In this document: positions 1 to 59,686 of the stretch, in pieces
Layout: every line of letters begins with the position of its first letter
Numbering within the stretch: the stretch's first letter is position 1
Origin: an uncultured Thermoplasmatales archaeon
Lineage (GTDB): Archaea; Thermoplasmatota; Penumbrarchaeia; Penumbrarchaeales; Penumbrarchaeaceae
Direction: 5' to 3'
NCBI GenBank assembly: GCA_964563055.1
Contig: CAZLVP010000003.1
Coordinates: 48,646-112,645, forward strand
Length of the DNA stretch: 64,000 nucleotides
Translations under genes and position numbers: made by a program
The notes under the pieces: model-generated
What the model saw: only the letters and a program-made list of their open reading frames with translations
Database searches by the model: none
What the model was told of the DNA's origin: nothing

Positions 1-335
1 ACAGGCTCAACGAGACCGGTCCAGGCACCTATGCATCTATAATTCCCGCAACAGCCCTGACCTGGGATATGGAATATGCCTATCACTTTTCCGATATGGC
101 CAACGGCCCTGACCTGGCCCCTGAGCTCGGAGGCAAGTTCAGGACGCCCAAGCAGACCTCAATAGGGGATGATGATGACGATGACGACGATGATGATGAC
201 GATGAGGATGGGATCGGCAGATACATTCTGCCCCTCTGCATCGTTATAGGCATCGTTCTACTACTGGTCATCATAGTTCTGGTCCTCTTCCTTGCTTTGA
301 GGAAGAAGGATAAGTCCGGTTCATGGGAAGAATGA
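1..335 (+). CDS. C-terminal end of a larger surface protein (5'-partial; frame is open from the window start). It has a poly-Asp tract (D12-E-D), then a C-terminal TM anchor and an RKKD...SWEE tail.
   Basis: The frame is open from nt 3 to the stop at 335. The 12-residue Asp run is encoded by GAT/GAC repeats at about 166-207. The hydrophobic helix ILPLCIVIGIVLLLVIIVLVLFLAL is followed by a basic tail. Confidence 0.5.
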   Translation, partial: RLNETGPGTYASIIPATALTWDMEYAYHFSDMANGPDLAPELGGKFRTPKQTSIGDDDDDDDDDDDDEDGIGRYILPLCIVIGIVLLLVIIVLVLFLALRKKDKSGSWEE

Positions 336-416
336 TCCCCTCAGGCATCGACGGCACTGTCGAACCCAAAAGGCATATATGGTCGTACCATCCATCGCAG
401 TACTGGAGGCCCTCTC

Positions 417-2765
417 TTGAGATCCACCCCTGCTGCCAGGGCAGCGTTCCACTTGATAGCAGCGTTCATTGTCACTGCCCCCCTCCTGTTCATCGCATAC
501 GGTACGTCATCTTTAGTACCTCTCAATGTCCGAACGGCCTTGGAGGCCCGGGAGCATCTGGACCCATATCTCAAAAAGGTCATGGAGGAGGGAGAGGGGG
601 AAATGAGAGTATTGGTCCGGTTTACCGACTGGCCTATTGTGGACGATATCAGGTCCGCTGAAGGTCTGGGAATGGACCACATCTGTTCTATGCAGGTCCT
701 TCCAGCAGCTCTTTTTAAGGGGACGCCAGAACAGATATCCGTGCTCTCAAGGGCTCCCAGGGTCGAATGGATAGAGTTCGACGGTGACCTCGAGCTGCTG
801 ATGGAACAGTCCCTCCTGACCATAAATGCCACGGTCACATGGAACTCGTGGCTCGAGGGAGCAAGGATGACATTCCCCAGAATAGACGGTGAAGGTGTGA
901 CCGTTGCGGTCGTCGATACCGGCATCGATGCTGGTCACCCGGACCTGGACTACGGCGAGAAGACCATAATCAACATCAAGTCCGACATACCCGGTGGCCC
1001 ATGGTACGAGCTCGAGAACTCCGATACGAGCTACGGACACGGGACCCATTGCGCAGGGACCATAGCTGGCAACGGGGACGCCTCGGCGGGAGCCAGGGCC
1101 GGCGTCGCCCCGGCGGCTAAGCTGATCGGACTTTGTGTGGGCGATGTCGGTATCACCCTGACAAATACGCTCCAGGGCCTCGAATGGGTCTATATGAACT
1201 CAAAACCCCCCAACCCATACAATATCAAGGTGGTCTCGAACTCGTGGGGCGGTGGGGCGGCTGAATATGACCCGGAGGATGCGACGTCCATCATATGTCA
1301 GAAGCTCACCTACGAGAACAACGTGCTTGTTGTCTTCGCAATGGGCAATGCCGGAAGCGGGTATCATACCGGAGAGACACTTACTGCCTCTCCCACTGGT
1401 CTAATACCTTCCAACATCGGTGTCGCAGCGACGGAAAGGGACGGTTCGGGAGTGGCATATTTCTCGTCACGTGGCGAGAAGGGGAAGAACCAGACCTATC
1501 CTGATATATCCGCTCCTGGGGTGAGGATCTGGTCAGCCCATGCCAGGGCCACACAGATATCTGCCATCTCCAAACTGAGAGGAAATCCCAACCCATACTA
1601 CCTGGCAATATCTGGAACATCGATGGCAACCCCACACATATCCGGACTTGCCGCCCTCATGTTCCAGGCTGCACCATCCCTGAGGATATCCGGGAGGTTC
1701 GAGGACTACAGCGGGGACGACCCAGAAGGTTGGTACGGGAACACCTTCAACAGGATACACGAGGTAGAGTGGATAATGGAGCAGACCGCGTTCTACATCC
1801 CACCCGACGGCGTTCCGCTGAGCGACGAGAGCACCGATAATGGGGTCCCGGAGCCCGAGGACATGGGTCCCACCGAGGTCGGTTGGGACGGGAGGAAGAT
1901 GGACTGGGCCCAGGGTTATGGCCTTGTGGATGCCGAAAAGTGCGTTGGGGTTGCCCTCACACTGCAGCACCTACGCACAGCCTACCCCCCGGCCAACCAG
2001 TGGAGCGTCAAGGATGCGATAGAGGTCTATTACCAGAACGAGGTGTTCGGACCTGCGTTCCATAATCTATCCACCGACACCCTTCAGACAACATGGACCG
2101 GTGAGTTCGCCAGATATGCCCAGGACGATGAGGGACCTCTTTTGGTCCAGAACCAATCAAGGCGGGTTTGGGTCCCTGGGGGAGCGACCGAGATGACCAT
2201 AGTCCTCTCCTACGACCCCGTGAACATTGTCGATAGGTCGGTCGGAGAGCTCACCTTCGTGGTGGATATGAACGATGACGGGACCTTCGATTACGAAGAA
2301 CCGTTCCTTGGGTCAAGGACCTCAGGTACTAAGGAGGCGGTCCTTCCCGTGGACGGGTCCAACACCGGTGGTTTTTGGGTGATAGGGGTCTATGGTCGCG
2401 GGTTCAGGATCATAAGGCCCATCATCGACAGGGAGTTCATGGAGCTGAGGATAGAGTATTCCCTTGGTGTCGCCCTCAGGATGGACATGCAAGAAGGAGG
2501 CATCATTTCGGTCACACCCCCTTTACCGACCTCCATGGTATCCATCTGGGAGGAGGGGACCCCCTCGGGAGGATACATGGGGGGTACAATATCCCTCTCC
2601 GGAACGGCGTTCCATATGAACAGGATGCATCCTATAGAGGAAACACCTCCACCTGGAAAGGAACGGTCCATGTTATGGTTGTTATTGCTGATAGTCGCTT
2701 TGGCCGCGGGAGTACTAGTAGCGGTCCTATATATCCGAAATAGAAAGAAGCCTTCAAAGGGCTGA
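417..2765 (+). CDS. Subtilisin-like serine protease (S8 family). It has an N-terminal signal/anchor and propeptide and a C-terminal TM anchor.
   Basis: The catalytic triad motifs VAVVDTGID (Asp), HGTHCAGTIAG (His) and GTSMATPHISG (Ser) are present. The C-terminal helix is LWLLLLIVALAAGVLVAVLYI followed by RNRKK. The start is TTG at 417; an ATG at 582 is the alternative. Confidence 0.85.
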   Translation: MRSTPAARAAFHLIAAFIVTAPLLFIAYGTSSLVPLNVRTALEAREHLDPYLKKVMEEGEGEMRVLVRFTDWPIVDDIRSAEGLGMDHICSMQVLPAALFKGTPEQISVLSRAPRVEWIEFDGDLELLMEQSLLTINATVTWNSWLEGARMTFPRIDGEGVTVAVVDTGIDAGHPDLDYGEKTIINIKSDIPGGPWYELENSDTSYGHGTHCAGTIAGNGDASAGARAGVAPAAKLIGLCVGDVGITLTNTLQGLEWVYMNSKPPNPYNIKVVSNSWGGGAAEYDPEDATSIICQKLTYENNVLVVFAMGNAGSGYHTGETLTASPTGLIPSNIGVAATERDGSGVAYFSSRGEKGKNQTYPDISAPGVRIWSAHARATQISAISKLRGNPNPYYLAISGTSMATPHISGLAALMFQAAPSLRISGRFEDYSGDDPEGWYGNTFNRIHEVEWIMEQTAFYIPPDGVPLSDESTDNGVPEPEDMGPTEVGWDGRKMDWAQGYGLVDAEKCVGVALTLQHLRTAYPPANQWSVKDAIEVYYQNEVFGPAFHNLSTDTLQTTWTGEFARYAQDDEGPLLVQNQSRRVWVPGGATEMTIVLSYDPVNIVDRSVGELTFVVDMNDDGTFDYEEPFLGSRTSGTKEAVLPVDGSNTGGFWVIGVYGRGFRIIRPIIDREFMELRIEYSLGVALRMDMQEGGIISVTPPLPTSMVSIWEEGTPSGGYMGGTISLSGTAFHMNRMHPIEETPPPGKERSMLWLLLLIVALAAGVLVAVLYIRNRKKPSKG

Positions 2766-2826
2766 TCGTACGCATTTAGGGACCTATTATAAATCGGCGC
2801 AGGCCCATTTTTCCTTTGGTGGAACA

Positions 2827-3246
2827 ATGGGTTACAAACGGATAGTCACCATCGAGGACATAATGGAGAACCGCAACAGGGCTTTGATCTACCGGACCAT
2901 TGTGGCCTACCCAGGTGCCAGCTTTTCCGATATTAGGATGCTATTGGGGATCAAGAACGGCACTTTGTCACACCATTTGATAAAGTTGGAGAAAGAAGGC
3001 CTTATAAAGTCCAAGAAGATGGGAATATTCCGAAAGTTCTTCCCGGCCAACGGGGTCGTACCCAAGGACCTCGAGGAGAAGATCAAGGACGTTGTCCTGG
3101 ATAATCCGGGTATCTCGCAATCGATGGTCGCCAGGTCACTTGATATCACAAGGCAGGTTGCCAATTATCACATCAACTCCCTCAAGAGGAAAGGGATCGT
3201 CATCGTCAAGAGGGCCGGTAGGGATTCCCAGGTCTACCTAAGGTGA
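2827..3246 (+). CDS. Transcriptional regulator made of two tandem winged-helix HTH domains (ArsR/Lrp-like).
   Basis: Two repeats of the pattern '...SFSDIRMLLGIKNGTLSHHLIKLEKEGLI' and 'ISQSMVARSLDITRQVANYHINSLKRKGIV' are present. Size is 139 aa. Confidence 0.55.
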   Translation: MGYKRIVTIEDIMENRNRALIYRTIVAYPGASFSDIRMLLGIKNGTLSHHLIKLEKEGLIKSKKMGIFRKFFPANGVVPKDLEEKIKDVVLDNPGISQSMVARSLDITRQVANYHINSLKRKGIVIVKRAGRDSQVYLR

Positions 3247-3312
3247 TATAGCAATAAAGATCGGACCTCTCTGAAACCGTCCGATAATGGCATAAGGCCC
3301 TCATTCGATCCA

Positions 3313-3483
3313 TCATCTTTTATTAATGGTATATGCGCAATTGGTGCATTTCCAGATCTCGAATATGTCCTGGCCTCTGGAGAATGGGACCAGATTGCCC
3401 TTATCGCACTTAGGGCATTTCGGGAACAGTTCCGCCGTGTTTACCGCCTCCGAATCAATATGACCGACCGGCTTATTAATCAT
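3313..3483 (-). CDS. Small (56 aa) zinc-ribbon protein with CPKC...CTNC. It is not in the ORF track, which has a 60-aa cutoff.
   Basis: Manual minus-strand translation gives MINKPVGHIDSEAVNTAELFPKCPKCDKGNLVPFSRGQDIFEIWKCTNCAYTINKR with four Cys in a CxxC...CxxC arrangement. It lies in an intergenic gap of about 650 bp. Confidence 0.35.
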   Translation of the reverse strand: MINKPVGHIDSEAVNTAELFPKCPKCDKGNLVPFSRGQDIFEIWKCTNCAYTINKR

Positions 3484-3896
3484 TTTCCTCTCTTCAAATG
3501 GGCACTATTACCATTTATGACCCATGGTGGACCCTTATTGCGGACCGATTACATGAAGAGGAGGGTCCCGATGATTATTAGACCTGTGACGGTAAGTATC
3601 GTCATAAGGAGCAGTGTCAGGTGGACATGGGGGCCATGCTCTGGATCGTCGAGGGCGCCCATTAGTCCCTTGCTCCCTAGAGTGGAGATGACCTTTCCGA
3701 ACGAATATTTGGGCGGTGTGTTCCCAAGCTGTGTTCCGTCCATTTCTGGCACCCCTGAACCCCACAGGGATGATGATTACTTAACGGTTTGGTATTAGGG
3801 GGCGGTCCCGGACAACAAACAGGAACGGGGTCATAGATAGATTTATCGTCAATACGTCCTTTCGGCGGCCCAGAAGTATCTCCTGGAGATGGTACA

Positions 3897-5420
3897 ATGA
3901 CCGTGAAGCTTGACGGTGAGACAGTAACGTTCGAGGATATTGCCAGGGTCGCCAAGGGCGGGGAGAAGGTGGAGCTGACGGAACAGGCGAAGCAACGGGT
4001 TGAGAGATGCCAGGATATGATATCGGCCTTGGTCGCAAGGGGAGAGAAGATCTACGGGGTGACGACCGGTATAGGTGAGCTGGCTTCAGTAATGCTCACC
4101 CCTGAGCAGGGGCTAGAGCTCCAGAAACGGATAATTTACTCCCACAGCGCTTCCTTCGGGGACGACCTGCCCGAGGATGAGGTCAAGGCCGCTATGGCCT
4201 CAAGGGCAAATGTATGGGCAAAGGGTCATACTGGGATCAGGCTCTCCACGGTCAGAACGTACCTGGAAATGGTGAACAGGGGGGTGGTGCCCATAGTCTA
4301 TGAGAAGGGCTCTGTCGGCTGTTCTGGGGACCTTAGCCCGCTGTCCCAGATCGCCGAGGTCGTCATAGGGGATGGCAGGGCAAGGTTCAACGGAGAGGTC
4401 CTGCATGGGAAGGAAGCGATGCAGAGGGCCGGGCTCGAGCCCGTTGTCCCTACCTTCAAAGAAGGTCTGGCCCTTATAAACGGGACCCAGGTGATGGTCG
4501 GTCAGATGTGCCTGGTCCTTGAGAGGTCACGTTCCCTGATAAAGGATGCCATGATCGCCTCGGCCATGTCCCTGGACGCCCTAAGGACGGTCTTGAAGCC
4601 GTTCGATGAGAGGGTCCATCTGGCCAGACCGCACAAAGGCCAGATCTCCGTTGCTAGCAACTTGAGGAGATTGCTGGATGGGTCCGAAATACTTGCAAGA
4701 CCATCCGGTAAGGTCCAGGACGGTTATTCGATGAGGTGCACACCTCAGATAATCGGCCCCACACTCGACCTATGGCACTATGCTCGGGGCGTCATAGAGA
4801 CAGAGCTGAACTCGGTAGTGGACAACCCAATTTTCTTCCCAGACCAGGACGACTTTGTTGGAGCGGGAAATTTTCACGGCCAACCAGTAGGCATCGCGGC
4901 CGATGTACTTAAGATAGGGATGTCAGAGCTATGCGACCTCTCCGAGAGGCATATAAACAGATTGCTGAACCCGGTCCTCTCCGGATTGCCGCCTTTCCTT
5001 GTCAATGGAGCCGGAATGAACTCCGGCCAGATGGTTGCCCAATATACGGCGGCAGTGCTAGTTTCGGAGAACAAGGTCCTGTCACATCCCGCATCCGTCG
5101 ATTCCATCTCCGTTTCGGCCGACCAAGAGGACCATGTATCAATGGGACCCGTTGCCATCAGGCATCTGAAGGAGGTCTGTAAGAACACCGTCGGGGTCCT
5201 TGCCATTGAGATGCTCACGGCCGCCCAGGCCCTTGATTTCAGGAAGCCGCAGAGACCAGGGGTCGGTACCATGGCCGCTTACGAGGTGATAAGGCAGAAA
5301 GTGCCATTCCTGGAGGACGACCGTCCGTTGCACCCGGATATCAAGGCCGTTGCCGACCTGATCCGGAACGGGACCATAAGGGAAGCTGTGGAGAGGACCG
5401 TGGGCGAACTGGAAGTGTGA
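3897..5420 (+). CDS. hutH: Histidine ammonia-lyase family (MIO-dependent aromatic amino acid ammonia-lyase).
   Basis: The MIO-forming triad is recognisable in GSVGCSGDLSPLSQIAE, but reads C-S-G rather than the usual A-S-G. The LQKRIIYSHSASFG region has the 'SH' typical of HAL. Length is 507 aa. Confidence 0.8.
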   Translation: MTVKLDGETVTFEDIARVAKGGEKVELTEQAKQRVERCQDMISALVARGEKIYGVTTGIGELASVMLTPEQGLELQKRIIYSHSASFGDDLPEDEVKAAMASRANVWAKGHTGIRLSTVRTYLEMVNRGVVPIVYEKGSVGCSGDLSPLSQIAEVVIGDGRARFNGEVLHGKEAMQRAGLEPVVPTFKEGLALINGTQVMVGQMCLVLERSRSLIKDAMIASAMSLDALRTVLKPFDERVHLARPHKGQISVASNLRRLLDGSEILARPSGKVQDGYSMRCTPQIIGPTLDLWHYARGVIETELNSVVDNPIFFPDQDDFVGAGNFHGQPVGIAADVLKIGMSELCDLSERHINRLLNPVLSGLPPFLVNGAGMNSGQMVAQYTAAVLVSENKVLSHPASVDSISVSADQEDHVSMGPVAIRHLKEVCKNTVGVLAIEMLTAAQALDFRKPQRPGVGTMAAYEVIRQKVPFLEDDRPLHPDIKAVADLIRNGTIREAVERTVGELEV

Positions 5421-5573
5421 GCTGGCCTGTTCGTTCCGGGGGTCCAGCAATCCTCTGACCATGGAAAACTAAATATCTTAAAACGGTGATACTTCAGAGG
5501 TCCATTCGTGGTCAGCAGGGTCCCGTATCCTCTGGCCAGATCTCCTAATAGGGATAGAATTCAGGTGGGGCAT

Positions 5574-48286: not shown

Positions 48287-49182
48287 TCCGCCCCCGTATC
48301 ACCGATAAGAACAGCAAATACGATCTGGGCCACAGGTATGAGCCCGAAGATGGTTGCCATGAGCAGTGTATCCCCGCCCTGCTGCCCCATCATGGCCATC
48401 GTCGACATCATGATTATCAGGAAGAGGGGAGCGGCGACGACGACTGTAACGAAGCTCTCTGCCATGACACCCAGGGTCTGCATGTCCCTCTCCTGTTTCA
48501 GGCGGTTCTCCTTCATGAACTGCTCGGATTTGGCCATGAAATAGACCTTGAGGGAGCCTCCGGAGTTCGAGGTCGTGATAATACCCTGAAGGAAATCCTG
48601 GAACCGCTCCGAGGGGCTTCTGGCGATGGCCTTTTGCAGGACCTTAATGATATCCCTGCCGAAGAAGTCTATGTCCCTTGCGATCTTCTCCGCCTCCGTT
48701 CTGACCTCGCCGTATATCTCCTGTTCGGCCAATCCGCGGAAGATGGCAGTTGGGGTAACATCGGCCGACGACATGGCGGCCATATAGTTAGTGGCATAGG
48801 ACAGGTTGTTCTCTATGCTTTTCTTCCTTTCCGAGACGGCGTTCCTGGGAAGGCCCATGAAGATCGCGTAGGTGAACATACCTACCAGAGGCGGGACCGC
48901 GATCCAGATTACGAGCTTTATCGGTAATGGGAGGCCAAGGCTCTCCAGAATGGTCAGGTTCAGAATGGTGGCGACAATGAGCCCCCCGATGATGGCCAAT
49001 ACGACCGAGACCAACATCCCGGTGTAATAGACCTCGCCCCTGAGGTTGTAATTGGCCCTCTCCATGATGCTCTCGATATCGGGATCGTTATCGGCGAGCT
49101 TTTTCCCAAGCTTTGTCAAAGGTCCTATCTTCATGCTAGCCTTGAAGTAGGGTGTCAGGGTCATCTCATCCACCTCCTGCAT
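48283..49182 (-). CDS. Type II secretion / archaeal pilus platform protein (FlaJ/TadB-like).
   Basis: It is polytopic and T2SS-F-like. It overlaps the upstream ATPase gene by 17 nt. Confidence 0.6.
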   Translation of the reverse strand: MQEVDEMTLTPYFKASMKIGPLTKLGKKLADNDPDIESIMERANYNLRGEVYYTGMLVSVVLAIIGGLIVATILNLTILESLGLPLPIKLVIWIAVPPLVGMFTYAIFMGLPRNAVSERKKSIENNLSYATNYMAAMSSADVTPTAIFRGLAEQEIYGEVRTEAEKIARDIDFFGRDIIKVLQKAIARSPSERFQDFLQGIITTSNSGGSLKVYFMAKSEQFMKENRLKQERDMQTLGVMAESFVTVVVAAPLFLIIMMSTMAMMGQQGGDTLLMATIFGLIPVAQIVFAVLIGDTGAD

Positions 49183-51220: not shown

Positions 51221-51405
51221 CGTGAACGCATCCCCTTGGTCAGCTTTATTTAGCGTAAATAATCCGTAATTACCTATTTTTTAACCTTCTGTTGGTGTTA
51301 CTCGGTCAGAGATATATAATTGTTTTTATATTAATGGCCGATTCGGGAAATCCCCGGGATTCAGGTGCTGGGCCTTACCTGAAAGGACCAAGGGAGCGAT
51401 GATCT

Positions 51406-51936
51406 ATGACCAAGACCGGAATGATACCAAGGATATCAAGTGACTGCTATGTGCATAGTTCCGCGTTCATCTGCGGCGATGTGGAGGTCGGTCGGGACTC
51501 TTCGATTTGGCCCAATGCGGTCATACGTGGTGATGAGGAATCCATCAGGATAGGGGAGAGGACGAGCGTTCAGGACTGCGTTGTCATCCATGCCGATACA
51601 GGGCTTGTCACTTCCATCGGCAACGATGTCACCATTGGTCACTCGGCCGTGGTGCATGGATGTGTGATAGAGGACAAGTGCATAATAGGCATCCATTCGA
51701 CAATCTTGAACGGTTGTGTTGTCGGGAGGGGTAGCATCATCGGAGCGGGGGCGGTCCTCACTCCGGGGACCAAGGTCCCCCCCAACAGCATGGTGCTCGG
51801 AATACCTGGCAAGGTCGTAAAGAACGACCCCTCTTACGAGGTGATGGCAAGCGAGAACGCCAGGATATACGTCGGACTCTCGAAACTGCATCTTAAGGGA
51901 AGTTTCCCCAGCTATCCGGTCGATCGTGCTCATTGA
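51406..51936 (+). CDS. Gamma-class carbonic anhydrase family (LbH, Cam/PaaY-like).
   Basis: It has hexapeptide repeats with the His ligands VHSSAFICGDVEVG...IHADTG...VHGCVIED. Confidence 0.8.
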   Translation: MTKTGMIPRISSDCYVHSSAFICGDVEVGRDSSIWPNAVIRGDEESIRIGERTSVQDCVVIHADTGLVTSIGNDVTIGHSAVVHGCVIEDKCIIGIHSTILNGCVVGRGSIIGAGAVLTPGTKVPPNSMVLGIPGKVVKNDPSYEVMASENARIYVGLSKLHLKGSFPSYPVDRAH

Positions 51937-54431
51937 TCCTTTCCTATGACCCATGCCATACCAAGCGGCGCTGCTGGCAACGTTATCAGTGAGGCCGCAT
52001 AGACAAGCATCTTTGGCACCGGACCGCCTGTCTTGCGTTGAACGATGAATGCGATCCCGTCCAATATGGGGACCATGACCATGAGCACACCAAGAACAGC
52101 CATCCCGGTGTCAATGATCAGGATCGCTCCAAAGAGGAGAGCGAGCGCACTATGAGCGGCCAGGAAGGCATAAGTTGGGACCCTGACGGGACCTGTACCA
52201 GTATGGGGTCTGTCCTCCATCCAGGAGGCGATCTTGGTAAGGAGGTCCGCAAGGAGGACCCCCCCAGCGAACAGCGAAAAGAAGAACAATAACGTCCAGA
52301 GATATGGCCCCTGCTGTCCTGTGAGCTCTGCAAGGAAAGAGCTGTAATCGAATAGGAAATGCAATGCTATCGATGCGTGAAGCCCTATCTTGACATAGAG
52401 ATAACCGAAGAGGAGCCCCATGATGAAGGTGGGGGCTATCTTCCAGATACCCCACCCGATATGGGCAAGTCCGAAAAGGGCGGCAGAGATGAATATCAGG
52501 ACCGCTGCCGGGACTGAGACCCCCCCATGCCCCCCTATGAGGGCTTTTAGTGCAGGACCTTTCCCTTGTTTCATCAATGCCAAGACCGAGAGCGGAGCAC
52601 CGATCATGAGGACCCTGGTTATGATCTCTTCCCAGACCGAGGCATTGGCTAGGGTCACCATCCGTATCCAGATAGGGACCTTTTCGGATAGCAGGTCAGG
52701 GACCGGTGTGGGTTGTTCCATAAGATTGAAGAGGACCACAACAGAGAGTGAGAAGAAAAGAGCACCGATATATGTCCTTGAGGTCGCTATAAGGTCATTG
52801 TCCCTGTCTCTGAGGAGGTCCCTGATCTTGCGTTCGAGGTCCTTCGCCCCTCCTTTCAATAGCGGTCGCAACCCTCTTCCGAACAGATAGGCGCAAGATA
52901 TGACAATGGCCGTAGAGATAACAAGGAACCAGACGATCAGGACAGGGCCTTTCAATCTCAACACAAGAAGGATGGTCTCTGAAGGTTCGAAGTAGGTCGC
53001 CGATCGGACCCTGATTGTCCTTTCCCCGAGGGTCCCTTGATGGGTGGTAACTATCGTCGTATTGTATTCGAAACCATCCGTGACCTCTGTTAGCTCAAGG
53101 TCGCGATCGTTCAATTCCAGTTGGGGGACATCCCTGAACAACCTCCAGTTGACCAGCTCCCATTCTCCCTTTAACGTCAGCTCCATAGGGTCCAGACCAT
53201 CCCTGTATCGGTCAGAGAACGGGTCCGGGCTGAGGGAGAGGTCCGGGGTCGGATTATCAGTAAGGTAAGTCCTGTAACGGAGAAGCTCTATCGAGTTGGT
53301 CCCTATAGTGTCGTATTCAACGATAAGATCGGTCCTCCCATCGCTCCCGTAGTCATCCGGTGTGACCATTATCCCTTTCCAAACCTTCCTTTGGGGCGTG
53401 GGGGAGAGCGGATATTTCTTACCCTCTATTTTCATGGTCAGGTCAGGGAGCGGGAACCAGCTGTTTTCCGTTACGTCCAATGGGATTGTGAACGAAATAT
53501 GGTAGTAGGTCTCGGCCATCATTGTAACATTGCCTTGGGTGTTGTTAATGGAGGCACCCTTTTCAAGGTCATATAGAGAATCCTTGTGGTCGAGTACGGT
53601 CTCAAGCACCATGGAGACCTTGTCAGCATCATGGTTAGGGCTCCATCCTGTTCCTACTAAGAATCCCTTCTGATACTTTCGGGTAAGTGGGGATGTGGTG
53701 GGATGGGTAAACGTGCATTCGATGTCGAACTCGGTCCACAGGCTGGTTGGAACATAGGACAGAGTATCGTAGTCCAAAGTGAAGGACCTCCCACCCCTTT
53801 CATGAAGTGTATATATCATTTTGCCTCTGCCCCCGACCATCCTACTGACCTCCCTGAACATAGAGGTATGGGATAGTGAGAGGTTCTCGTCCGTCAGGGG
53901 GAGGAGGAACGATATCCTTCCCTTGATTACCTCAACGCTCGCAAAGGTCGATAATTTGGAGGAATGACCGATCTCACGACCGCTCCAGGCCTCGACGGTC
54001 CAATTGAACCCACCTTCCAGTCCGGGTACCCTGGTCCAACCACTCCACGAACCGTCAGCGGTCCAAGAATCCCATAGCCTATACCAAAGGTCGCCCAGCT
54101 CGGAGCTCAGGACAATGTATTGCGGGGGATGGGGCCTGGAACCGCTCCCGAACGTCAGGGTGACGTTGAAAGGTGAACCTTCAATAACGGATGATGGTGC
54201 TTGCAGTGAACAGGAGGTCGAGCCGTCCGGGTAGAACGGTAGCACCATCTCTCCCGATGTGGATGCTTTATAGGTCCTCCCGGCGTTACCGAGGACAGAA
54301 GGGAAAGATAGACCGAGAGCTAGCAGGTTCCCTGCAAGGAGGGCTCCGACCAGCAGCAAGGTCACCAGATTGACTAGGTAGCCCCTGCCATTGTCAATAG
54401 GTCCCTTCTTCCGTTCTCTATCGGATGACAT
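51930..54431 (-). CDS. CPBP-family (CAAX/Rce1-like) intramembrane metalloprotease fused to an N-terminal ectodomain of about 550 aa.
   Basis: The C-terminal motifs EEIITRVLMIG (EExxxR), FGLAHIGWG (FxxxH) and HFLFDY (HxxxD) are present. The N-terminal signal anchor is YLVNLVTLLLVGALLAGNLLAL. I set the start at MSSDRERKK (54431). Confidence 0.6.
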   Translation of the reverse strand: MSSDRERKKGPIDNGRGYLVNLVTLLLVGALLAGNLLALGLSFPSVLGNAGRTYKASTSGEMVLPFYPDGSTSCSLQAPSSVIEGSPFNVTLTFGSGSRPHPPQYIVLSSELGDLWYRLWDSWTADGSWSGWTRVPGLEGGFNWTVEAWSGREIGHSSKLSTFASVEVIKGRISFLLPLTDENLSLSHTSMFREVSRMVGGRGKMIYTLHERGGRSFTLDYDTLSYVPTSLWTEFDIECTFTHPTTSPLTRKYQKGFLVGTGWSPNHDADKVSMVLETVLDHKDSLYDLEKGASINNTQGNVTMMAETYYHISFTIPLDVTENSWFPLPDLTMKIEGKKYPLSPTPQRKVWKGIMVTPDDYGSDGRTDLIVEYDTIGTNSIELLRYRTYLTDNPTPDLSLSPDPFSDRYRDGLDPMELTLKGEWELVNWRLFRDVPQLELNDRDLELTEVTDGFEYNTTIVTTHQGTLGERTIRVRSATYFEPSETILLVLRLKGPVLIVWFLVISTAIVISCAYLFGRGLRPLLKGGAKDLERKIRDLLRDRDNDLIATSRTYIGALFFSLSVVVLFNLMEQPTPVPDLLSEKVPIWIRMVTLANASVWEEIITRVLMIGAPLSVLALMKQGKGPALKALIGGHGGVSVPAAVLIFISAALFGLAHIGWGIWKIAPTFIMGLLFGYLYVKIGLHASIALHFLFDYSSFLAELTGQQGPYLWTLLFFFSLFAGGVLLADLLTKIASWMEDRPHTGTGPVRVPTYAFLAAHSALALLFGAILIIDTGMAVLGVLMVMVPILDGIAFIVQRKTGGPVPKMLVYAASLITLPAAPLGMAWVIGKDQ

Positions 54432-54544
54432 CCCTTTTCTCCTGACTACCGAGAAATGAGGCGCCTCTATTATAGTGTTCGCGGGGAAAACGGTTAAATC
54501 CACCCCGGGAGATGCTCTCCACTTACGACCTTGAAGGCCCATCA

Positions 54545-57500
54545 ATGAACGATAATGAACGCTGCGTTGATCTCGTGAAGGAGGACACAACCTTACCTCT
54601 TCAGCTAAACGAACGGGTATTGGAATGGTTCAATAGGTCGGTCGGGGAGCCCACGCTCCTGCAGTCCAAGGCTTGGAGCTCTATCCTTGAGGGCAGGAAC
54701 ACCCTGATAATATCCCCTACGGGTTCCGGCAAGACCCTTGCTGCTGTGCTCCCGGCCATTAGCAACCTTGTGAGCGGCAGATGGGGTCGGAGGTCGATAT
54801 CCGTTGTTTACATATCCCCTATGAGGGCGCTTGGAGCGGACCTTGTGAGGAACATCGGGGACATTTCGAAGGGTATAGGCCCTTTTCCCGGGAGGTCCAT
54901 CAGGAAGAGGCACAGTAGTAAGAGAGCGGATGGACCCGAGGAGGCCCCCCTCGATATAGGCATCAGAACAGGGGATGTCCCTCAATCCGAACGAAGGAGG
55001 CTGTTGACCCATCCCCCGGACATCCTGGTGATCACCCCTGAGAACCTCCTTTTGATGCTTTGCTCCGGAGCAAGGGAGACCCTCATGGATGTCTCCTGTG
55101 TCGTCCTTGACGAGCTCCACGACCTGGCCGCGAGCAAGAGGGGGGCACTGCTCTCTCTTTCCCTGGAGTTGTTGAACGATCAGCTCCATGTGAGGGGGAG
55201 GCCTGAGCCTGTCCGTATAGGGCTTTCTGCCACGGTCAGGCCTGAGAGGACTGCCGCAGCGTTCCTAGGTGGGTTCGATAGGAACGGCCGTCCTAGGCCA
55301 GTCAATGTGGTGAAGGAGCCCCAGAGGAAGGAGATGGAGATAGAGGTCCGGACCATCTCCATGGACGACCGTACTGAAGATGCGGTAAAAGAGGCAGTGA
55401 TAGGTGAGGTCAGCCGTTACATAAAGGGGGAGGCAGGCCCGGTGGTCGTCTTCCAGAACACCAGGAAAGGTGCCGAGGAGATGTCTTTTTCTCTCACACA
55501 GAGAGGTTTAGAGGGTATCACGGCGCACCATGGGTCCCTTGGCCCGGACGTCAGAAGAGGGGCGGAGGAGGGATTGAAGACTGGGAAGCTCAAAGCAATC
55601 ATCTCCTCCACATCACTGGAACTAGGTGTTGATATCGGTTCGGTCGGGCTGGTGGTCCAGGTAGCCTCGCCCCGGAGCCCCACTAAGCTCATCCAGAGGT
55701 TCGGGAGGTCAGGACATGGTCTCAATAGGACCTCTCGCGGGGCCATACTTACCAGCTCAAGGGTGGACCTGATCGAATCGATGGCGGTGCTCAGGGCCGC
55801 ATCAGGCGGGGATATTGAGAGGCTTACCCCACCCATGGGACCTCCGGACGTTCTTGCGCAGTTCATAGTGGGGGCGGCCATCGGTGATGACGGTCTCGAT
55901 CCAAAGAGGATCATGAACCTGGCAAGAAGGACGTTCCAGTTCCGAGGCCTTAAGGGTGCGTCACTTAAGGCCGTCATATCACTTCTTACCGAAAGACTAC
56001 CAGGACCGAAACAGCCCTCTCCTCGTCTCAGGATAGATGGCACAACAGGACTTCTTCGTCCCAACAAGGATACCAAACAGGCATTCTATCTGAACTGTGG
56101 GACCATACCAAGGGAGACGAACTACAAGGTCATGGACGTCCCGAAGGGGCATGTGGTGGGCGAGCTATCAAGGGATTTTGCTGAGTCATTGTTCGAGAGG
56201 GACGTCATCATGCTCGCTTCCAAGAGCTTCAGGGTCACCGGATTCTCCGGCAGCAGGGTCCTGGTCAGGGAGGACCCTGGTTCGCTCCCAACAACACCTA
56301 TTTGGACCGGTGAGGCCCCGGCCAGACCAGTGGTCGTGACCCGGGAGATCTATGCCATGCATGCGAGGCCCCCGCAGAGACCGTCCGGCTCGTCCGGACC
56401 TTTCAGCTGGAGCATGGACGGTCCCACCATCGATCTTCTAAAGGACAGCTTCCAGGCCCTGTCCGCTTCCGGTATCAGACCATCCGAACATAACATTCCC
56501 GTTGAGAGGGTACCGCTTCCGGGCGGCCGGACAGCTCACGTGGTCCATCTTCCATTGGGGAAACGTTCGACCGACCTGCTGGGCAGGGTCATTTCCTACG
56601 GCCTAAGGCGCAGGTTCGGCGCAGCTATGGACCATATTGCGAGCGATGATGGTCTTGCCATTTCGTCCCCTCTTGTCCTTGAGGAAGAGGACCTCGTGCT
56701 CTCGATGCCTGAAGGTCGTTTCAAGGACCTTGCTGGAGAACTGGTCCTATCATCATCCATGTTCAGGTCAAGGTTCGCCTCATGTGCAGGGCGGTCGCTC
56801 CTTGTCCTGTCTAGGTTCAGGGGCCGTGATACAGGGGTGATGTATCGAAGGTCCACAATGGACAGGCTCCTGTCGACGGTCCGCTCTGAAAAAAGGGGTG
56901 GAAAAGGGGTTTTGAAGGCAACAGGGCCCGTTCATGGATTGAAGCTCATTGCGGAGGAGGCCTTGAAGGAGTCGATGTCAGAAGGGACAGACCTGCAAAG
57001 GCTCGAAGGTATTCGTTCTGGAGTGGTGGATGGCCGCATAAGGTTCGAGATGCTGCCTCCCTCATCGACATTGAGCTTCCTTGGTGCGTCCATTATGAGG
57101 AATTGGAAGGTTAGGGCGTTTGAAGGCGAGCAGGGTGCCCTACTTGTGGACGGACCTGCGGGAGAGCACCGATCGGACCATGGAAATGCGCCTGGAACGG
57201 CAGTTGCGATGATCGGAGGGGAACTATCATCCTCTGCAGGGCCGATCTACCTGCAGTCAGCACAGACCTCCATCGAGAGGAGGTCAAGGCTCGAGGTCCA
57301 TGGTGGATTGGAGAGGGTCCTGAGGGGTGTTCCCTTCTTCACCCATCCCCTGGACATCATCAGGAGGGCCAGGGGTTCTGACCTGAACCAGTTACGCTCG
57401 GCCATGAAGGGTGGTAGACTGGTCCCTGTCAGGACCTGCGGGAAGGATAGAATGGCACATCCCGAATGGGCCTGGGCCTTCCAGGTCCTTTCCCCCCAAC

Positions 57501-59686
57501 CGCCCGAGGTTCCCAAAGCCCTGACCCTTCTTCTGTTGGAAGGACGTCCGTTGAGCAGAGCTGAGGTTGGGGCAGCTGCAATGGTCAAAGGTCCAGAACT
57601 GGCCCGGCTCTTGGAGGTCCTCGCGCTATCGAACAGCCTGGTCCGGTTCCCAGCAGAGGCGAGGTACCATCTTGGGGCGCCGGACGGATTGGTGCCAGGG
57701 CTACCAATTAAAAGGAGCGATGACCGCTTTGAAGCAGAGCAGCTGAAGGCCATACTGAAGGTCCTCTCATGTCTGGGCCCAATGACCATGACCGAGCTTG
57801 CACACATGTTCAACTGGGGTGAAGGTCAAACGCCTAAGGGCATTTCCAGGGGTTTGGAGGATGGGACCATTCAGGCCCTCCAAGGACCCCCTGGTCCTAT
57901 GGACCTTTCGATCGAAGGGCGGACCGGGGATATCCATATTAGATCATGGCTCGCCCCTATCGATAAGGGACCTAAAACCTGGAAAGGGACAGATGGGGAA
58001 CCTACGGTCATGACATCCAAGGACCCATCGCTGGTCATCACCGGGAATGCAATGGAGGAACTGGAGAGGGAACATGTCAGGGACACCCTACCAGCACTCC
58101 TGGAAGGGATCCTGCCGGAAGGGGCTTCCCCCATCCAGGCAAGGGTCTCAGAAAGGAGGGACCTGGTGCTCTTCCGAGAGCTTTCGATCAGGGACTATTC
58201 CCTGGTGGGTTCTGCCGGTAAATTGATAATGGATGCTGTAAGGCTCTATGAAAACCTCAGCTATGAGGTGTTCTGTATAGACGGCCTAATGGGGGTCCCA
58301 GCAGGAGATACGACACCGAGATTATTGACGCCATTGATGGAGGGCGGGTTCTCCCCGGTCCAGACCGAAAAAGGGCCAGTTCTCATCTTGGGATGCGAGG
58401 AGGGCCGGGGATTGGACCGGGAACGTGTCCTGTGGGAGATGCTCTCAAGGCAGGGCCTTCTTCCGGAGAAGAGGAAGCGCCATCCGGTGGAGGTCCTCGA
58501 GCTCTTGGGTGGAATATCGGACCGTTGGGAGCTCCTGAGCAGATTGGGTACCTCGAGGTATCCAAGGGGCCGTGGCCTCAACAGAGATGCCTTCTCGTCC
58601 AGACAGAAGGCATTATGGGATGGCCTAGGTAGGATATTGAAGGGGGAGCCACTATGGTCCGATATCCCTGCACCGGTAGAGCTCTCCGAACAGATGGAGT
58701 CGCTACCGGAGATCAGGGACCTTGCGAGGGGATTGGGACTGTTTAAGGTCTTGCTCGACCAGCCCAATCCGGTCTGGGCCTTCGAGGAAGAAGCGATCAG
58801 GGCCCCTCCACCCTCACCTGGCACCCTGGCGTCGCTCGATAAGGCCTCCAGGAAGCTGGTCGAACGATTGCTGGCCGTGAGCAGAAAGGCCTCATCGGAC
58901 ATCCTCAAGGCCTCCGATGTAGGTGATGAGGTAACTGAGCTGGTCAAGAGCGGCCTGGCCGTTCAGGACGCTTGGGGTGGCCATCAGTTCCCTTTCGATG
59001 ATTCCAGGTTCGGGAGGGCGCACAGACGCAGGGACCCGAACGAACCGAAAGGGCTCAGGCAGAGGAAATGGCTCATCCGATGTGCTGTAGCATTAGGCCT
59101 TTTCACGATGGGGGACCTCCTTGAATATTCCCCCTCGCTCGACGACCCGTGCAAGGTCAGGACCATGTTGAACGAGCTGTCCAGAGGGCCGCTCACAAGG
59201 AAGCTCTACTACGATAGCGGCCCGGTCCTTGTCCATGGTGTTCCCGAAGCGTTCGAGGCCCCCCCTGGTCCTCCCACCTCAGGACAGCTGGAGGGGACCG
59301 AGCTGACCCTCATCTCCCCAAGGGACAGGATGGCAAGGGTCCTTGCAGGGGATGTAAGAGCTCTCCTGTCCAGACGCCAGGGCTTCCTGGTGATGAAGGG
59401 GACCAGGTGCCTTTCGACGGTGAACATAGTTCGCTCCACCTATGGTCGTCGAAAGGACGGGAACGTGGGTGTCGGTCCGTCCTATGGAGGTGCCACTTTA
59501 ATGATAAAGAAGGTCTGGATGGACCTGAGGTTGAAGCGTCCTGTCCTTCTCAGGGATATTAAAAGGGCTTTCTTCGAGCATGGGTCGAAGGTCCTAACGA
59601 TAGAGGAGGGACCTGGGCTCGAGGAGCTTTACAGGGATATCAACCCCTATGAAGATGTCCCGGTCCTGTACCGAAAGAGGGATTGA
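54545..59686 (+). CDS. lhr: Lhr-family DExH-box helicase, unusually long (about 1710 aa) with a large C-terminal extension.
   Basis: Motifs I ISPTGSGKT, II VVLDELHD, III LSAT and VI QRFGRSGH are present. The C-terminal half carries repeated winged-helix-like modules. Confidence 0.75.
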   Translation: MNDNERCVDLVKEDTTLPLQLNERVLEWFNRSVGEPTLLQSKAWSSILEGRNTLIISPTGSGKTLAAVLPAISNLVSGRWGRRSISVVYISPMRALGADLVRNIGDISKGIGPFPGRSIRKRHSSKRADGPEEAPLDIGIRTGDVPQSERRRLLTHPPDILVITPENLLLMLCSGARETLMDVSCVVLDELHDLAASKRGALLSLSLELLNDQLHVRGRPEPVRIGLSATVRPERTAAAFLGGFDRNGRPRPVNVVKEPQRKEMEIEVRTISMDDRTEDAVKEAVIGEVSRYIKGEAGPVVVFQNTRKGAEEMSFSLTQRGLEGITAHHGSLGPDVRRGAEEGLKTGKLKAIISSTSLELGVDIGSVGLVVQVASPRSPTKLIQRFGRSGHGLNRTSRGAILTSSRVDLIESMAVLRAASGGDIERLTPPMGPPDVLAQFIVGAAIGDDGLDPKRIMNLARRTFQFRGLKGASLKAVISLLTERLPGPKQPSPRLRIDGTTGLLRPNKDTKQAFYLNCGTIPRETNYKVMDVPKGHVVGELSRDFAESLFERDVIMLASKSFRVTGFSGSRVLVREDPGSLPTTPIWTGEAPARPVVVTREIYAMHARPPQRPSGSSGPFSWSMDGPTIDLLKDSFQALSASGIRPSEHNIPVERVPLPGGRTAHVVHLPLGKRSTDLLGRVISYGLRRRFGAAMDHIASDDGLAISSPLVLEEEDLVLSMPEGRFKDLAGELVLSSSMFRSRFASCAGRSLLVLSRFRGRDTGVMYRRSTMDRLLSTVRSEKRGGKGVLKATGPVHGLKLIAEEALKESMSEGTDLQRLEGIRSGVVDGRIRFEMLPPSSTLSFLGASIMRNWKVRAFEGEQGALLVDGPAGEHRSDHGNAPGTAVAMIGGELSSSAGPIYLQSAQTSIERRSRLEVHGGLERVLRGVPFFTHPLDIIRRARGSDLNQLRSAMKGGRLVPVRTCGKDRMAHPEWAWAFQVLSPQPPEVPKALTLLLLEGRPLSRAEVGAAAMVKGPELARLLEVLALSNSLVRFPAEARYHLGAPDGLVPGLPIKRSDDRFEAEQLKAILKVLSCLGPMTMTELAHMFNWGEGQTPKGISRGLEDGTIQALQGPPGPMDLSIEGRTGDIHIRSWLAPIDKGPKTWKGTDGEPTVMTSKDPSLVITGNAMEELEREHVRDTLPALLEGILPEGASPIQARVSERRDLVLFRELSIRDYSLVGSAGKLIMDAVRLYENLSYEVFCIDGLMGVPAGDTTPRLLTPLMEGGFSPVQTEKGPVLILGCEEGRGLDRERVLWEMLSRQGLLPEKRKRHPVEVLELLGGISDRWELLSRLGTSRYPRGRGLNRDAFSSRQKALWDGLGRILKGEPLWSDIPAPVELSEQMESLPEIRDLARGLGLFKVLLDQPNPVWAFEEEAIRAPPPSPGTLASLDKASRKLVERLLAVSRKASSDILKASDVGDEVTELVKSGLAVQDAWGGHQFPFDDSRFGRAHRRRDPNEPKGLRQRKWLIRCAVALGLFTMGDLLEYSPSLDDPCKVRTMLNELSRGPLTRKLYYDSGPVLVHGVPEAFEAPPGPPTSGQLEGTELTLISPRDRMARVLAGDVRALLSRRQGFLVMKGTRCLSTVNIVRSTYGRRKDGNVGVGPSYGGATLMIKKVWMDLRLKRPVLLRDIKRAFFEHGSKVLTIEEGPGLEELYRDINPYEDVPVLYRKRD

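What the first reader, a model, noticed from the sequence alone, without database searches (positions are those of the whole stretch)
54545..59686. Bacterial-length (1.7k aa) Lhr helicase in an archaeal context
Archaeal Lhr-type helicases are typically about 900 aa. This ORF continues for roughly another 800 aa that look like serial winged-helix modules, as in the C-terminal domains of long bacterial Lhr. It is divergently arranged with the CPBP gene. It is either a horizontally acquired bacterial-type Lhr or an undescribed archaeal long form. The extension could carry a second activity (glycosylase or nuclease).
Basis: partly seen in the sequence, partly recalled or inferred. Interest (0 to 1): 0.5.

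Follow-up and report, generated by a model that had tools for sequence, protein, structure and literature searches.

The report
Long archaeal Lhr, tandem AlkZ-like tail
This is a real 1,713-residue DNA-repair helicase of an uncultured Thermoplasmatota archaeon whose 870-residue tail, invisible to domain databases, consists of two tandem copies of the AlkZ/YcaQ DNA-glycosylase fold; long archaeal Lhr proteins were already known, so it is a modest variant rather than a surprise.

Summary
The ORF is real: 54545..59686 (+), 1,713 aa, with no stop or frameshift. Residues 1-840 are a complete Lhr-core with intact helicase motifs. Residues 841-1713 match nothing in Pfam, NCBIfam or PDB sequences.

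The tail is still a true, highly diverged Lhr C-terminal domain.
- Profile-profile comparison links it (99.7%, E 8.5e-27) to the HTH_42-bearing tail of Methanomassiliicoccales-type long Lhr. That tail in turn links to the bacterial Lhr-CTD.
- The tail is a disordered linker plus two tandem AlkZ-like modules. The first ends in a GNAT-like alpha/beta sub-domain. The bacterial WH2-WH3 part is missing.

The fused gene and its neighbours are conserved in about 20 Thermoplasmatota genomes and found nowhere else, so it was inherited vertically and not recently acquired from bacteria. Hajj et al. 2021 already noted long archaeal aLhr2 forms, including Thermoplasmatales extensions "with no detected Pfam domain".

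Canonical glycosylase motifs are absent, so a second catalytic activity is possible but unproven.

Verdict: observation confirmed, interpretation partly supported, a new variant of a known kind, moderate interest.

The parts
54545..59686 (+). Complete long-form Lhr gene (1,713 aa plus stop). An alternative upstream ATG at 54512 would give 1,724 aa.
   Evidence: ORF list and translation. Identical protein P0003 in NCBI, and 79%-identical 1,713-aa P0004. N-terminus matches P0004 from 54545.
54545..57064 (+). Lhr-core (aa 1-840): RecA1 (DEAD, nt 54659-55240), RecA2 (Helicase_C, 55424-55714), WH_Lhr (55799-56281), Domain 4 / DEAD_assoc (56480-57061).
   Evidence: Pfam E 3.8e-27, 1.9e-13, 3.2e-19 and 1.6e-22. 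phmmer E 1.4e-100 to the M. smegmatis Lhr-core 5v9x. Motifs I SPTGSGKT, Ia PMRAL, II DELH, III SAT and VI QRFGRSGH are present. NCBIfam PRK13767 477 bits, below its 849 cutoff.
57065..57250 (+). Unconserved, predicted-disordered linker between core and tail (aa 841-902).
   Evidence: pLDDT 26-50 over CTD residues 1-60. Poorly aligned among homologues. In locus L014 the gene changes frame exactly in this linker.
57251..58405 (+). AlkZ-like module 1 (aa 903-1287): three winged helices followed by an alpha/beta domain.
   Evidence: hhalign of A-m1 against clade-B module 1: 98.9%, E 1.2e-17, 345 columns. That clade-B segment carries Pfam AlkZ-like PF06224, E 7e-20, model positions 20-252, and is paralogous to clade-B module 2 (99.4%, E 7.5e-22). 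Secondary structure from the AF2 model. It was not modelled or fold-searched on its own.
58004..58399 (+). GNAT-like alpha/beta sub-domain at the end of module 1 (approx. aa 1154-1285). It includes the conserved GVPAGD segment, in which G1250 is invariant and P1252 and G1254 are at least 90% conserved in clade A.
58406..59644 (+). AlkZ-like module 2 (aa 1288-1700): a complete HTH_42 fold, with three winged helices plus a C-terminal beta domain.
58508..58543 (+). GGISDRWELLSR (aa 1322-1333): invariant D-R-W-E ... R cluster in the first winged helix of module 2, in the loop where YcaQ and AlkZ carry their catalytic motif.
   Evidence: D486, R487, W488, E489 and R493 (CTD numbering) are invariant in 26 sequences. 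Clade B has G-G-phi-R-S-[D/E]-x-E-x3-R at the aligned place. The positional equivalence to YcaQ Q45-I-D47 rests on collinear sequence islands and low-confidence alignments. It is inferred, not shown.

Best explanation
The gene encodes a genuine single-polypeptide long form of the archaeal Lhr helicase, specific to a lineage of uncultured Thermoplasmatota.

Shown: the N-terminal 840 aa are a complete, motif-intact Lhr-core. In characterised Lhr proteins this core is an ATP-driven 3'-to-5' single-strand DNA translocase and helicase. A disordered linker of about 60 aa follows. Then come two tandem copies of the AlkZ/YcaQ (HTH_42) fold, each made of three winged helices plus a small beta-rich domain. 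They are orthologous to the two modules in the tail of Methanomassiliicoccales-type long Lhr. Module 2 corresponds to the WH4-WH6 plus beta-barrel sub-domain of bacterial Lhr. Module 1 is a duplicate whose terminal domain is enlarged into a GNAT-like fold. The bacterial WH2-WH3 part is absent.

Inferred: the motor tracks along single-stranded DNA at stalled forks or gaps. It carries the two C-shaped winged-helix modules to duplex DNA, where they recognise damaged bases or crosslinks. Module 2 keeps an invariant Asp/Arg/Glu cluster in the loop that holds the catalytic residues of YcaQ and AlkZ, so it is the likelier site of any base-excision chemistry. Module 1 looks like a non-catalytic DNA-binding or scaffolding copy.
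For: - Continuous ORF and Lhr-core domains; E 1.4e-100 to the solved Lhr-core; helicase motifs intact.
- Tail homologous to the clade-B archaeal HTH_42 tail: hhalign 99.7%, E 8.5e-27, 640 columns. Module by module: 98.9% and 97.9%.
- Clade-B modules are paralogues of each other (99.4%, E 7.5e-22), and B-m2 matches the bacterial AlkZ-like sub-domain (94.5-95.8%).
- Pfam AlkZ-like hit on B-m1, E 7e-20.
- The fusion is conserved in 15 of 16 loci and in about 20 database proteins. The clade is confined to Thermoplasmatota MAGs, and synteny is conserved.
- Functional precedent: the Msm Lhr-CTD is essential for crosslink resistance (PMC9841417), and the E. coli Lhr-CTD is a uracil-DNA glycosylase although it lacks QxQ (PMC10953399).
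Against: - No clade-A member hits Pfam AlkZ-like or any other family in the tail (0 of 26).
- Direct profile comparison with bacterial tails is not significant, so homology to the bacterial CTD is only transitive plus structural.
- Module 1 was never modelled or fold-searched alone.
- The canonical HTH_42 catalytic motifs QxD, (Q/H)xQ and Hx(S/T)(D/E) are absent. The motif loop is 9-14 residues shorter than in YcaQ or bacterial Lhr, and its residue mapping rests on weak alignments.
- The equivalent of E. coli Lhr D1536 could not be mapped.
- The core scores well below NCBIfam equivalog cutoffs (477 against 849), which indicates a fast-evolving and possibly functionally shifted protein.
- The neighbours (pilus-type ATPase, CPBP protease, surface protein) give no DNA-repair context.
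- The AF2 alignments are shallow (26 and 14 sequences).
Confidence: 0.75

Rival explanations
1. The tail is a purely structural element, serving oligomerisation, DNA clamping or partner binding, with no catalytic activity of its own. The conserved charged cluster would then be a structural or DNA-contact feature.
For: - Canonical HTH_42 catalytic motifs are missing.
- The Msm Lhr-CTD is reported to lack the AlkZ catalytic residues, to nucleate a tetramer that occludes the putative DNA cleft, and to be needed in vivo through tetramerisation.
- The [D/E]-x3-R pair is conserved in all four archaeal modules, including the apparently degenerate module 1, which fits a structural role.
Against: - The E. 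coli Lhr-CTD also lacks QxQ yet has glycosylase activity.
- D486, R487, W488 and E489 are invariant across sequences only about 30% identical overall.
- Clade A lacks the WH2-WH3 sub-domain, and the interface contacts quoted include residues both there and in the AlkZ-like part.
Confidence: 0.45
2. The gene is a bacterial-type long Lhr recently acquired by horizontal transfer.
For: - The length resembles bacterial Lhr, and the fold of module 2 matches the bacterial CTD.
- Most archaeal Lhr proteins are short.
- Core similarity to bacterial long Lhr (about 380-390 bits) is not far below that to the archaeal clade B (about 420 bits).
Against: - All 20 loci with this tail are Thermoplasmatota MAGs.
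- The gene sits in the same order (T2SSF, T2SSE, hexapeptide transferase, CPBP, Lhr, surface protein) across the clade, down to about 30% protein identity.
- G+C content is unremarkable (0.56-0.58 against 0.52-0.58 elsewhere).
- The tail shares the derived two-module architecture with archaeal clade B and shows no direct similarity to bacterial tails.
- PRK13767 scores above PRK09751.
- An ancient transfer of an Lhr-HTH ancestor between domains is not excluded.
Confidence: 0.04
3. The long ORF is an assembly artefact, or a frameshift that fuses a 900-aa Lhr gene with a separate downstream gene.
For: One related MAG contig (L014) has core and tail in two overlapping frames, split in the linker. 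The linker is unconserved and disordered.
Against: - 15 of 16 independent loci, and about 20 database proteins from different assemblies and sources, keep one frame.
- In the exhaustive search every strong hit (E < 1e-30) was either a full-length Lhr of about 1,700 aa or a short sequence; the three of these checked (P0001, P0002, P0123) lie at or near contig ends.
- The window ORF has no stop in 5.2 kb.
Confidence: 0.03
4. The GNAT-like sub-domain of module 1 is an active acyl- or acetyl-transferase, which would give the protein a third enzymatic activity.
Against: - No Pfam GNAT hit even at E 10.
- By inspection there is no Q/R-x-x-G-x-G/A acetyl-CoA motif between the strand and helix where GNATs carry it.
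- The GVPAGD segment is not conserved in clade B.
- The domain is the counterpart of the HTH_42 C-terminal beta domain with an added alpha-beta-beta.
Confidence: 0.05

Closest known systems
Long aLhr2 of Methanomassiliicoccales / Thermoplasmata (about 1,780-1,800 aa, with Pfam HTH_42/AlkZ-like), noted by Hajj et al. 2021 (PMC8301817)
   Same: An archaeal Lhr-core followed by a tail of nearly 900-1,000 aa in the same phylum. The tails are homologous over 640 columns (99.7%). Both contain two tandem AlkZ-like modules, m1 and m2.
   Different: The window's clade lacks the first roughly 290 aa of that tail (m0, the counterpart of bacterial WH2-WH3). It is so diverged that no member hits PF06224. 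Its core is fast-evolving (PRK13767 477 bits against 1,155 for P0030). The motif loop reads x-D-R-W-E instead of R-S-[D/E]-x-E.
Bacterial long Lhr (bLhr-HTH): E. coli Lhr (1,538 aa) and M. smegmatis Lhr (1,507 aa; PDB 5v9x, 7lhl)
   Different: One AlkZ-like module in bacteria, two here. The bacterial WH2-WH3 sub-domain (PF23236, PF23235) is absent. There is no direct sequence or profile similarity between the tails. No counterpart of E. coli D1536 could be identified. Oligomeric state is unknown.
Stand-alone HTH_42 DNA glycosylases AlkZ (5uuj) and YcaQ/AlkX (9zd6)
   Different: About 13% identity. The catalytic QxD / (Q/H)xQ / Hx(S/T)(D/E) motif is not present and the loop is 14 residues shorter. 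The fold is fused in tandem behind a helicase rather than free-standing.
Short archaeal Lhr (aLhr1 and aLhr2, about 850-950 aa; e.g. Methanothermobacter, Sulfolobus, Thermococcus)
   Same: Same Lhr-core domain set. The best NCBIfam model is the 877-position short-type PRK13767.
   Different: These proteins end soon after Domain 4. The window protein continues for 873 aa.

Membership tests
Lhr helicases (Lhr-core) | SF2 helicase motifs I, Ia, II (DExH), III and VI in two RecA-like domains | tested here: met
   SPTGSGKT, PMRAL, DELH, SAT and QRFGRSGH found. Pfam DEAD 3.8e-27 and Helicase_C 1.9e-13.
Lhr helicases (Lhr-core) | Lhr-specific winged helix (PF19306) and Domain 4 (PF08494, DEAD_assoc) after the RecA domains | tested here: met
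   WH_Lhr 3.2e-19 (aa 419-579) and DEAD_assoc 1.6e-22 (aa 646-839). phmmer E 1.4e-100 to 5v9x.
Lhr helicases (Lhr-core) | Score above the curated NCBIfam equivalog cutoff (PRK13767 849; PRK09751 1496; TIGR04121 850) | tested here: not met
   477, 385 and 347 bits. A divergent member; clade-mate P0005 also falls below (558).
Lhr helicases (Lhr-core) | ATP-dependent 3'-to-5' ssDNA translocase and helicase activity | not testable with these tools
   Biochemistry needed.
aLhr2 group (Hajj et al. 2021) | Core branches within the aLhr2 subtree in a phylogeny that includes aLhr1, aLhr2, aLhr3, bLhr and bLhr-HTH references | not tested
The tree with clades A and B and bacterial long Lhr only shows each group monophyletic at 100/100, with A on a long branch.
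aLhr2 group (Hajj et al. 2021) | Tail homologous to that of the Methanomassiliicoccales long aLhr2 | tested here: met
   hhalign 99.7%, E 8.5e-27. Per module: 98.9% and 97.9%.
Bacterial long Lhr (bLhr-HTH, E. coli / M. smegmatis type) | N-terminal CTD sub-domain WH2-WH3 (PF23236, PF23235) | tested here: not met
   No Pfam hit. Clade-B m0 matches it (98.3%), but clade A starts at m1 after a disordered linker.
Bacterial long Lhr (bLhr-HTH, E. coli / M. smegmatis type) | C-terminal AlkZ-like sub-domain (WH4-WH6 plus beta-barrel) | tested here: met
Bacterial long Lhr (bLhr-HTH, E. coli / M. smegmatis type) | Sequence-level match of the tail (PRK09751 full length; PF06224 hit) | tested here: not met
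   PRK09751 matches the core only. phmmer of the tail against 7lhl gives nothing. hhalign A against C is about 1%.
Bacterial long Lhr (bLhr-HTH, E. coli / M. smegmatis type) | CTD-nucleated homotetramer; E. coli active-site Asp-1536 | not testable with these tools
   Quaternary structure was not modelled. The alignments do not reach the extreme C-terminus.
HTH_42 / AlkZ-YcaQ DNA glycosylases | C-shaped fold of three tandem winged helices plus a C-terminal beta domain | tested here: met
HTH_42 / AlkZ-YcaQ DNA glycosylases | Match to Pfam PF06224 | tested here: not met
   0 of 26 clade members at E <= 0.01. The tail alone at E <= 10 gives nothing.
HTH_42 / AlkZ-YcaQ DNA glycosylases | Catalytic motif QxD, (Q/H)xQ or Hx(S/T)(D/E) | tested here: not met
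   The motif loop reads G-G-I-S-D-R-W-E in module 2 and T-H-P-L-D in module 1. The acid is conserved but the Gln or His is not, and the positional mapping is low-confidence.
HTH_42 / AlkZ-YcaQ DNA glycosylases | N-glycosidic bond hydrolysis on alkylated or crosslinked DNA | not testable with these tools
   Enzymology needed.
GNAT acetyltransferases | GNAT fold with an acetyl-CoA-binding Q/R-x-x-G-x-G/A motif | tested here: inconclusive

The most novel reading that the evidence does not exclude
The two tandem AlkZ-like modules behind the motor might form a single-chain crosslink 'unhooking' device. An interstrand crosslink needs recognition, and possibly cleavage, on both strands. One polypeptide with two C-shaped lesion-binding modules, one retaining an invariant Asp/Glu cluster, could do as a monomer what bacterial Lhr achieves as a CTD-nucleated tetramer. 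It would use a catalytic loop chemistry (D-R-W-E) not yet described in the HTH_42 superfamily.
Probability: 0.12. Interest if true: 0.65.

Novelty: new variant of a known kind. Interest (0 to 1): 0.38.

Why it matters
Lhr is one of the most widespread archaeal repair helicases, yet the role of the long C-terminal domain is still debated even in bacteria: tetramer scaffold, crosslink sensor or uracil glycosylase.

This analysis shows that the Pfam-blank extension of a Thermoplasmatota lineage is a doubled AlkZ/YcaQ fold, and that the better-known Methanomassiliicoccales long Lhr also carries the duplication.
- It gives a concrete architecture for a domain that Hajj et al. 2021 left unannotated.
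- It expands the HTH_42 superfamily in Archaea, where one study counted only 12 members.
- It nominates specific residues for testing (D1326, R1327, W1328, E1329).
- It offers a natural variant that lacks the WH2-WH3 part of the bacterial CTD, useful for separating oligomerisation from lesion recognition.

It does not overturn anything. It is an incremental structural and evolutionary annotation.

Tried and rejected
- Direct domain and sequence searches of the tail gave nothing: Pfam at E <= 10, NCBIfam and PDB sequences; a clade-A half-tail profile against PDB; a clade-B module-2 profile against PDB, which gave only weak MarR-type winged-helix hits.
- A word-indexed protein search with the tail alone found only two fragments and wrongly suggested extreme rarity. 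The full-length search and the exhaustive profile search corrected this.
- A self-comparison of the two halves within clade A showed no significant internal repeat. The duplication only became visible in clade B.
- Profile against single-sequence alignments to E. coli YcaQ and the E. coli Lhr-CTD were not significant. The catalytic-residue mapping therefore stays an inference.
- I considered that the strong AlkZ match came from the first half, because Pfam's AlkZ-like hit in clade B lies there. Modelling the second half alone showed that it is a full AlkZ-like module.
- I considered the GNAT-like hits to be the ordinary HTH_42 beta domain and rejected this, because module 2 gives no GNAT hits.
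- I considered a stand-alone version of the tail. P0001, P0002 and P0123, the three candidates checked, lie at or near contig ends.
Full report
OBSERVATION. The window holds one uninterrupted + strand ORF from 54512 or 54545 to 59686, of 1,724 or 1,713 codons. The 54545 ATG (MNDN...) matches the N-terminus of the nearest full-length homologue (P0004, MNDI..., 1,713 aa), so I take it as the start. Pfam finds DEAD (aa 39-232), Helicase_C (294-390), WH_Lhr (419-579) and DEAD_assoc (646-839), which together are the Lhr-core. It finds nothing from aa 840 to 1713, even when that part is searched alone at E <= 10. The core matches the solved M. smegmatis Lhr-core at E 1.4e-100, whereas the tail matches no PDB sequence, including full-length MsmLhr 7lhl. 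Helicase motifs I, Ia, II (DELH), III and VI are intact.

WHO ELSE HAS IT. A search with the tail alone in the word-indexed database found only two contig-edge fragments. The full-length search was more informative:
- The identical protein is in NCBI (P0003, on a 166-kb contig).
- P0004 is a 79%-identical protein of 1,713 aa.
- About 20 proteins of 1,664-1,767 aa align at up to 98-100% of the query, at 34-45% identity. The named ones are labelled 'Thermoplasmatota archaeon DEAD/DEAH box helicase'. I call this group clade A.
- Hundreds of Thermoplasmata and Methanomassiliicoccus proteins of roughly 1,780-1,800 aa carry Pfam PF06224 (HTH_42/AlkZ-like) and match the query only over the core. I call this group clade B.
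- Bacterial proteins of about 1,450-1,500 aa carry the Lhr-CTD Pfam families. I call this group clade C.

An exhaustive HMMER search of 1.84 billion cluster representatives with a tail profile returned only 28 hits. The strong ones (E < 1e-30) were all full-length Lhr proteins of about 1,700 aa or short sequences; the three of these I checked (P0001, P0002, P0123) lie at or near contig ends. The weak tail included four AlkZ-like-bearing Lhr C-terminal regions (P0133, P0136-P0138), alongside one spurious Rib-repeat protein and two unannotated short sequences.

A scan of 185,579 species-representative genomes with clade-A-specific peptide patterns found 20 loci. All are Thermoplasmatota MAGs, and several are labelled EX4484-6. 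In 15 of the 16 loci with enough upstream DNA, core and tail sit in one open frame of 1,697-1,838 codons. In L014 the frame changes inside the unconserved linker. That could be a real split or an assembly indel.

Gene order is conserved throughout the clade: T2SSF, T2SSE, hexapeptide transferase, CPBP (divergent), long Lhr, an 824-aa surface protein, then orf149. This holds even where proteins are only about 30% identical. G+C content is unremarkable. This is vertical inheritance within an archaeal lineage and not a recent transfer.

WHAT THE TAIL IS. Profile-profile comparison gives the following results.

| Comparison | Probability | E-value | Columns |
|---|---|---|---|
| Clade-A tail vs clade-B tail | 99.7% | 8.5e-27 | 640 |
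| Clade-B tail vs bacterial tail | 98.4% | 9e-15 | 463 |
| Clade-A tail vs bacterial tail | about 1% | not significant | - |
| B-m0 (first ~290 aa) vs bacterial WH2-WH3 part | 98.3% | 1.1e-14 | 193 |
| B-m1 vs B-m2 | 99.4% | 7.5e-22 | 264 |
| B-m2 vs bacterial AlkZ-like sub-domain | 94.5-95.8% | 7.7e-8 to 7.5e-9 | 272-273 |
| A-m1 vs B-m1 | 98.9% | 1.2e-17 | 345 |
| A-m2 vs B-m2 | 97.9% | 3.4e-13 | 284 |

B-m1 carries the Pfam AlkZ-like hit (E 7e-20, model positions 20-252). Clade A has no m0. A predicted-disordered linker of about 60 aa joins the core directly to m1.

The tail is therefore a linker plus two tandem AlkZ-like modules. Module 2 is shown structurally. Module 1 is shown by a chain of significant homologies and by its secondary-structure pattern of three winged helices plus an alpha/beta domain, but it was not fold-searched alone.

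CATALYTIC RESIDUES. The known HTH_42 motifs are QxD (YcaQ-like), (Q/H)xQ (AlkZ-like) and Hx(S/T)(D/E) (AZL2) (PMC9040887). Bacterial Lhr-CTDs lack QxQ, yet the E. coli Lhr-CTD is a uracil-DNA glycosylase that depends on D1536 (PMC10953399).

I retrieved E. coli YcaQ and Lhr from the K-12 record. Module 2 shares collinear sequence islands with YcaQ:
- LAAQGLL against LSRQGLL.
- LFSRLGNYP against LLSRLGTSRYP.
- SLGIF...L..YY against ALGLF...L.EYS.
- VLSPFD against LISPRD.

Between the first two islands YcaQ has 39 residues, including L-L-Q45-I-D47. The window has 25, reading ...LLGGISDRWELL.... D486, R487, W488, E489 and R493 (CTD numbering; full-length D1326 to R1333) are invariant in 26 sequences. 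Clade-B m2 has G-G-phi-R-S-[D/E]-x-E-x3-R at the aligned place. Bacterial Lhr has Q-L-Q-G-x-E followed by nine more residues. A [D/E]-x3-R pair recurs in all four archaeal modules.

The canonical motif is therefore not met. A conserved acid/base cluster does occupy the equivalent loop of module 2, while module 1 (T-H-P-L-D) looks more degenerate. These equivalences rest on low-confidence alignments and are inference. The counterpart of E. coli D1536 could not be mapped.

RELATION TO WHAT IS KNOWN. Hajj et al. 2021 (PMC8301817) state that aLhr2 proteins of Methanomassiliicoccales carry an extra HTH_42 domain. [quoted passage not shown] The existence of long archaeal Lhr is thus published, and the protein itself is in NCBI. 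I found no paper that describes the structure of an archaeal long-Lhr tail, its tandem AlkZ-like duplication, or the identity of the Pfam-blank extension.

NCBIfam scores place the core nearer the short-type model PRK13767 (477 bits) than the E. coli-type model PRK09751 (385 bits, core only). Both are far below cutoff. The Methanomassiliicoccus protein P0030 scores 1,155 on PRK13767, and a bacterial long Lhr matches PRK09751 through its tail. A neighbour-joining core tree shows clades A, B and C each monophyletic at 100/100, with A on a long branch. Without short-Lhr outgroups this tree cannot test aLhr2 membership directly. The shared derived m1+m2 architecture is the stronger argument that A and B are sisters.

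A simple scenario follows:
1. The ancestral tail had the bacterial layout, WH2-WH3 plus one AlkZ-like module.
2. The AlkZ-like module was duplicated in Thermoplasmatota.
3. Clade A then lost m0 and diverged rapidly.

MECHANISM.
- Shown: an intact Lhr motor is fused through a flexible linker to two HTH_42-fold modules.
- From established knowledge: Lhr-cores are 3'-to-5' ssDNA translocases and RNA:DNA or DNA helicases. The Msm CTD is essential for mitomycin C and cisplatin resistance (PMC9841417). AlkZ and YcaQ unhook interstrand crosslinks and excise N7-alkylguanines.
- Inferred: the motor delivers the winged-helix modules to lesions at stalled forks or gaps. Module 2 may excise bases using its conserved Asp/Glu cluster. 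Module 1 probably only binds DNA or scaffolds.

I put about 0.9 on the architecture, about 0.3 on glycosylase activity of the tail, and about 0.45 on the rival view that the tail is purely structural.

VERDICT. The added value is the identification of the blank tail as a doubled AlkZ/YcaQ fold with a GNAT-like appendage and no WH2-WH3. It is a new variant of a known kind, of moderate interest.

Noticed in passing
window 59879-62353 (+): The 824-aa protein immediately downstream of the Lhr gene is 58-70% identical across the Thermoplasmatota loci, far better conserved than the Lhr (about 38%). Its only Pfam hit is one 18-aa TSP3 repeat. It has an N-terminal signal/TM segment, acidic D-x-D-x-D-G Ca-binding-type repeats (weak lanmodulin/EF-hand matches), and a Trp/Tyr-rich C-terminal domain of about 500 aa and unknown fold. 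It is probably a conserved surface or S-layer-type protein.
   Followed up: partly
L014 219-5500 (Thermoplasmatales archaeon ex4484_6, NJDO01000119.1): In this one MAG the long Lhr is split into two overlapping ORFs (219..3002 and 2945..5500). The frame change falls in the unconserved linker between core and tail. It is either a natural split into helicase plus a stand-alone double-AlkZ-like protein, or an assembly indel.
   Followed up: partly
clade-B proteins such as P0028 and P0030: The Methanomassiliicoccales-type long Lhr tail (about 980 aa) consists of a bacterial-like WH2-WH3 part plus two paralogous AlkZ-like modules (hhalign 99.4%, E 7.5e-22). Hajj et al. 2021 mention only 'an additional HTH_42 domain'.
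   Followed up: yes
window 45525-54590 and loci L003-L022: A conserved block precedes the Lhr gene in every related genome: TPR protein (seen in the window only), two T2SSF-like genes (one of which was detected in the related loci), a T2SSE/PilB-like ATPase, a hexapeptide-repeat transferase, and an 886-aa CPBP/Rce1-like membrane protein. It looks like an archaeal type IV pilus or archaellum-like assembly locus with no obvious link to DNA repair.
   Followed up: partly
window 51930-54590 (-): The CPBP/Rce1-like domain occupies only aa 639-749 of an 886-aa ORF. The other roughly 750 aa have no Pfam or NCBIfam match, yet are conserved at about 30% identity across the clade.
   Followed up: no
window 26294-29041 (-): A 915-aa ORF with no Pfam family at E <= 1e-5. 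It was not examined further.
   Followed up: no
window 42417-44078 (-): A 553-aa fusion of a D-Ala-D-Ala-ligase-type ATP-grasp domain with a GNAT acetyltransferase domain, next to the only tRNA gene in the window (tRNA-Arg CCT, 42120-42197).
   Followed up: no
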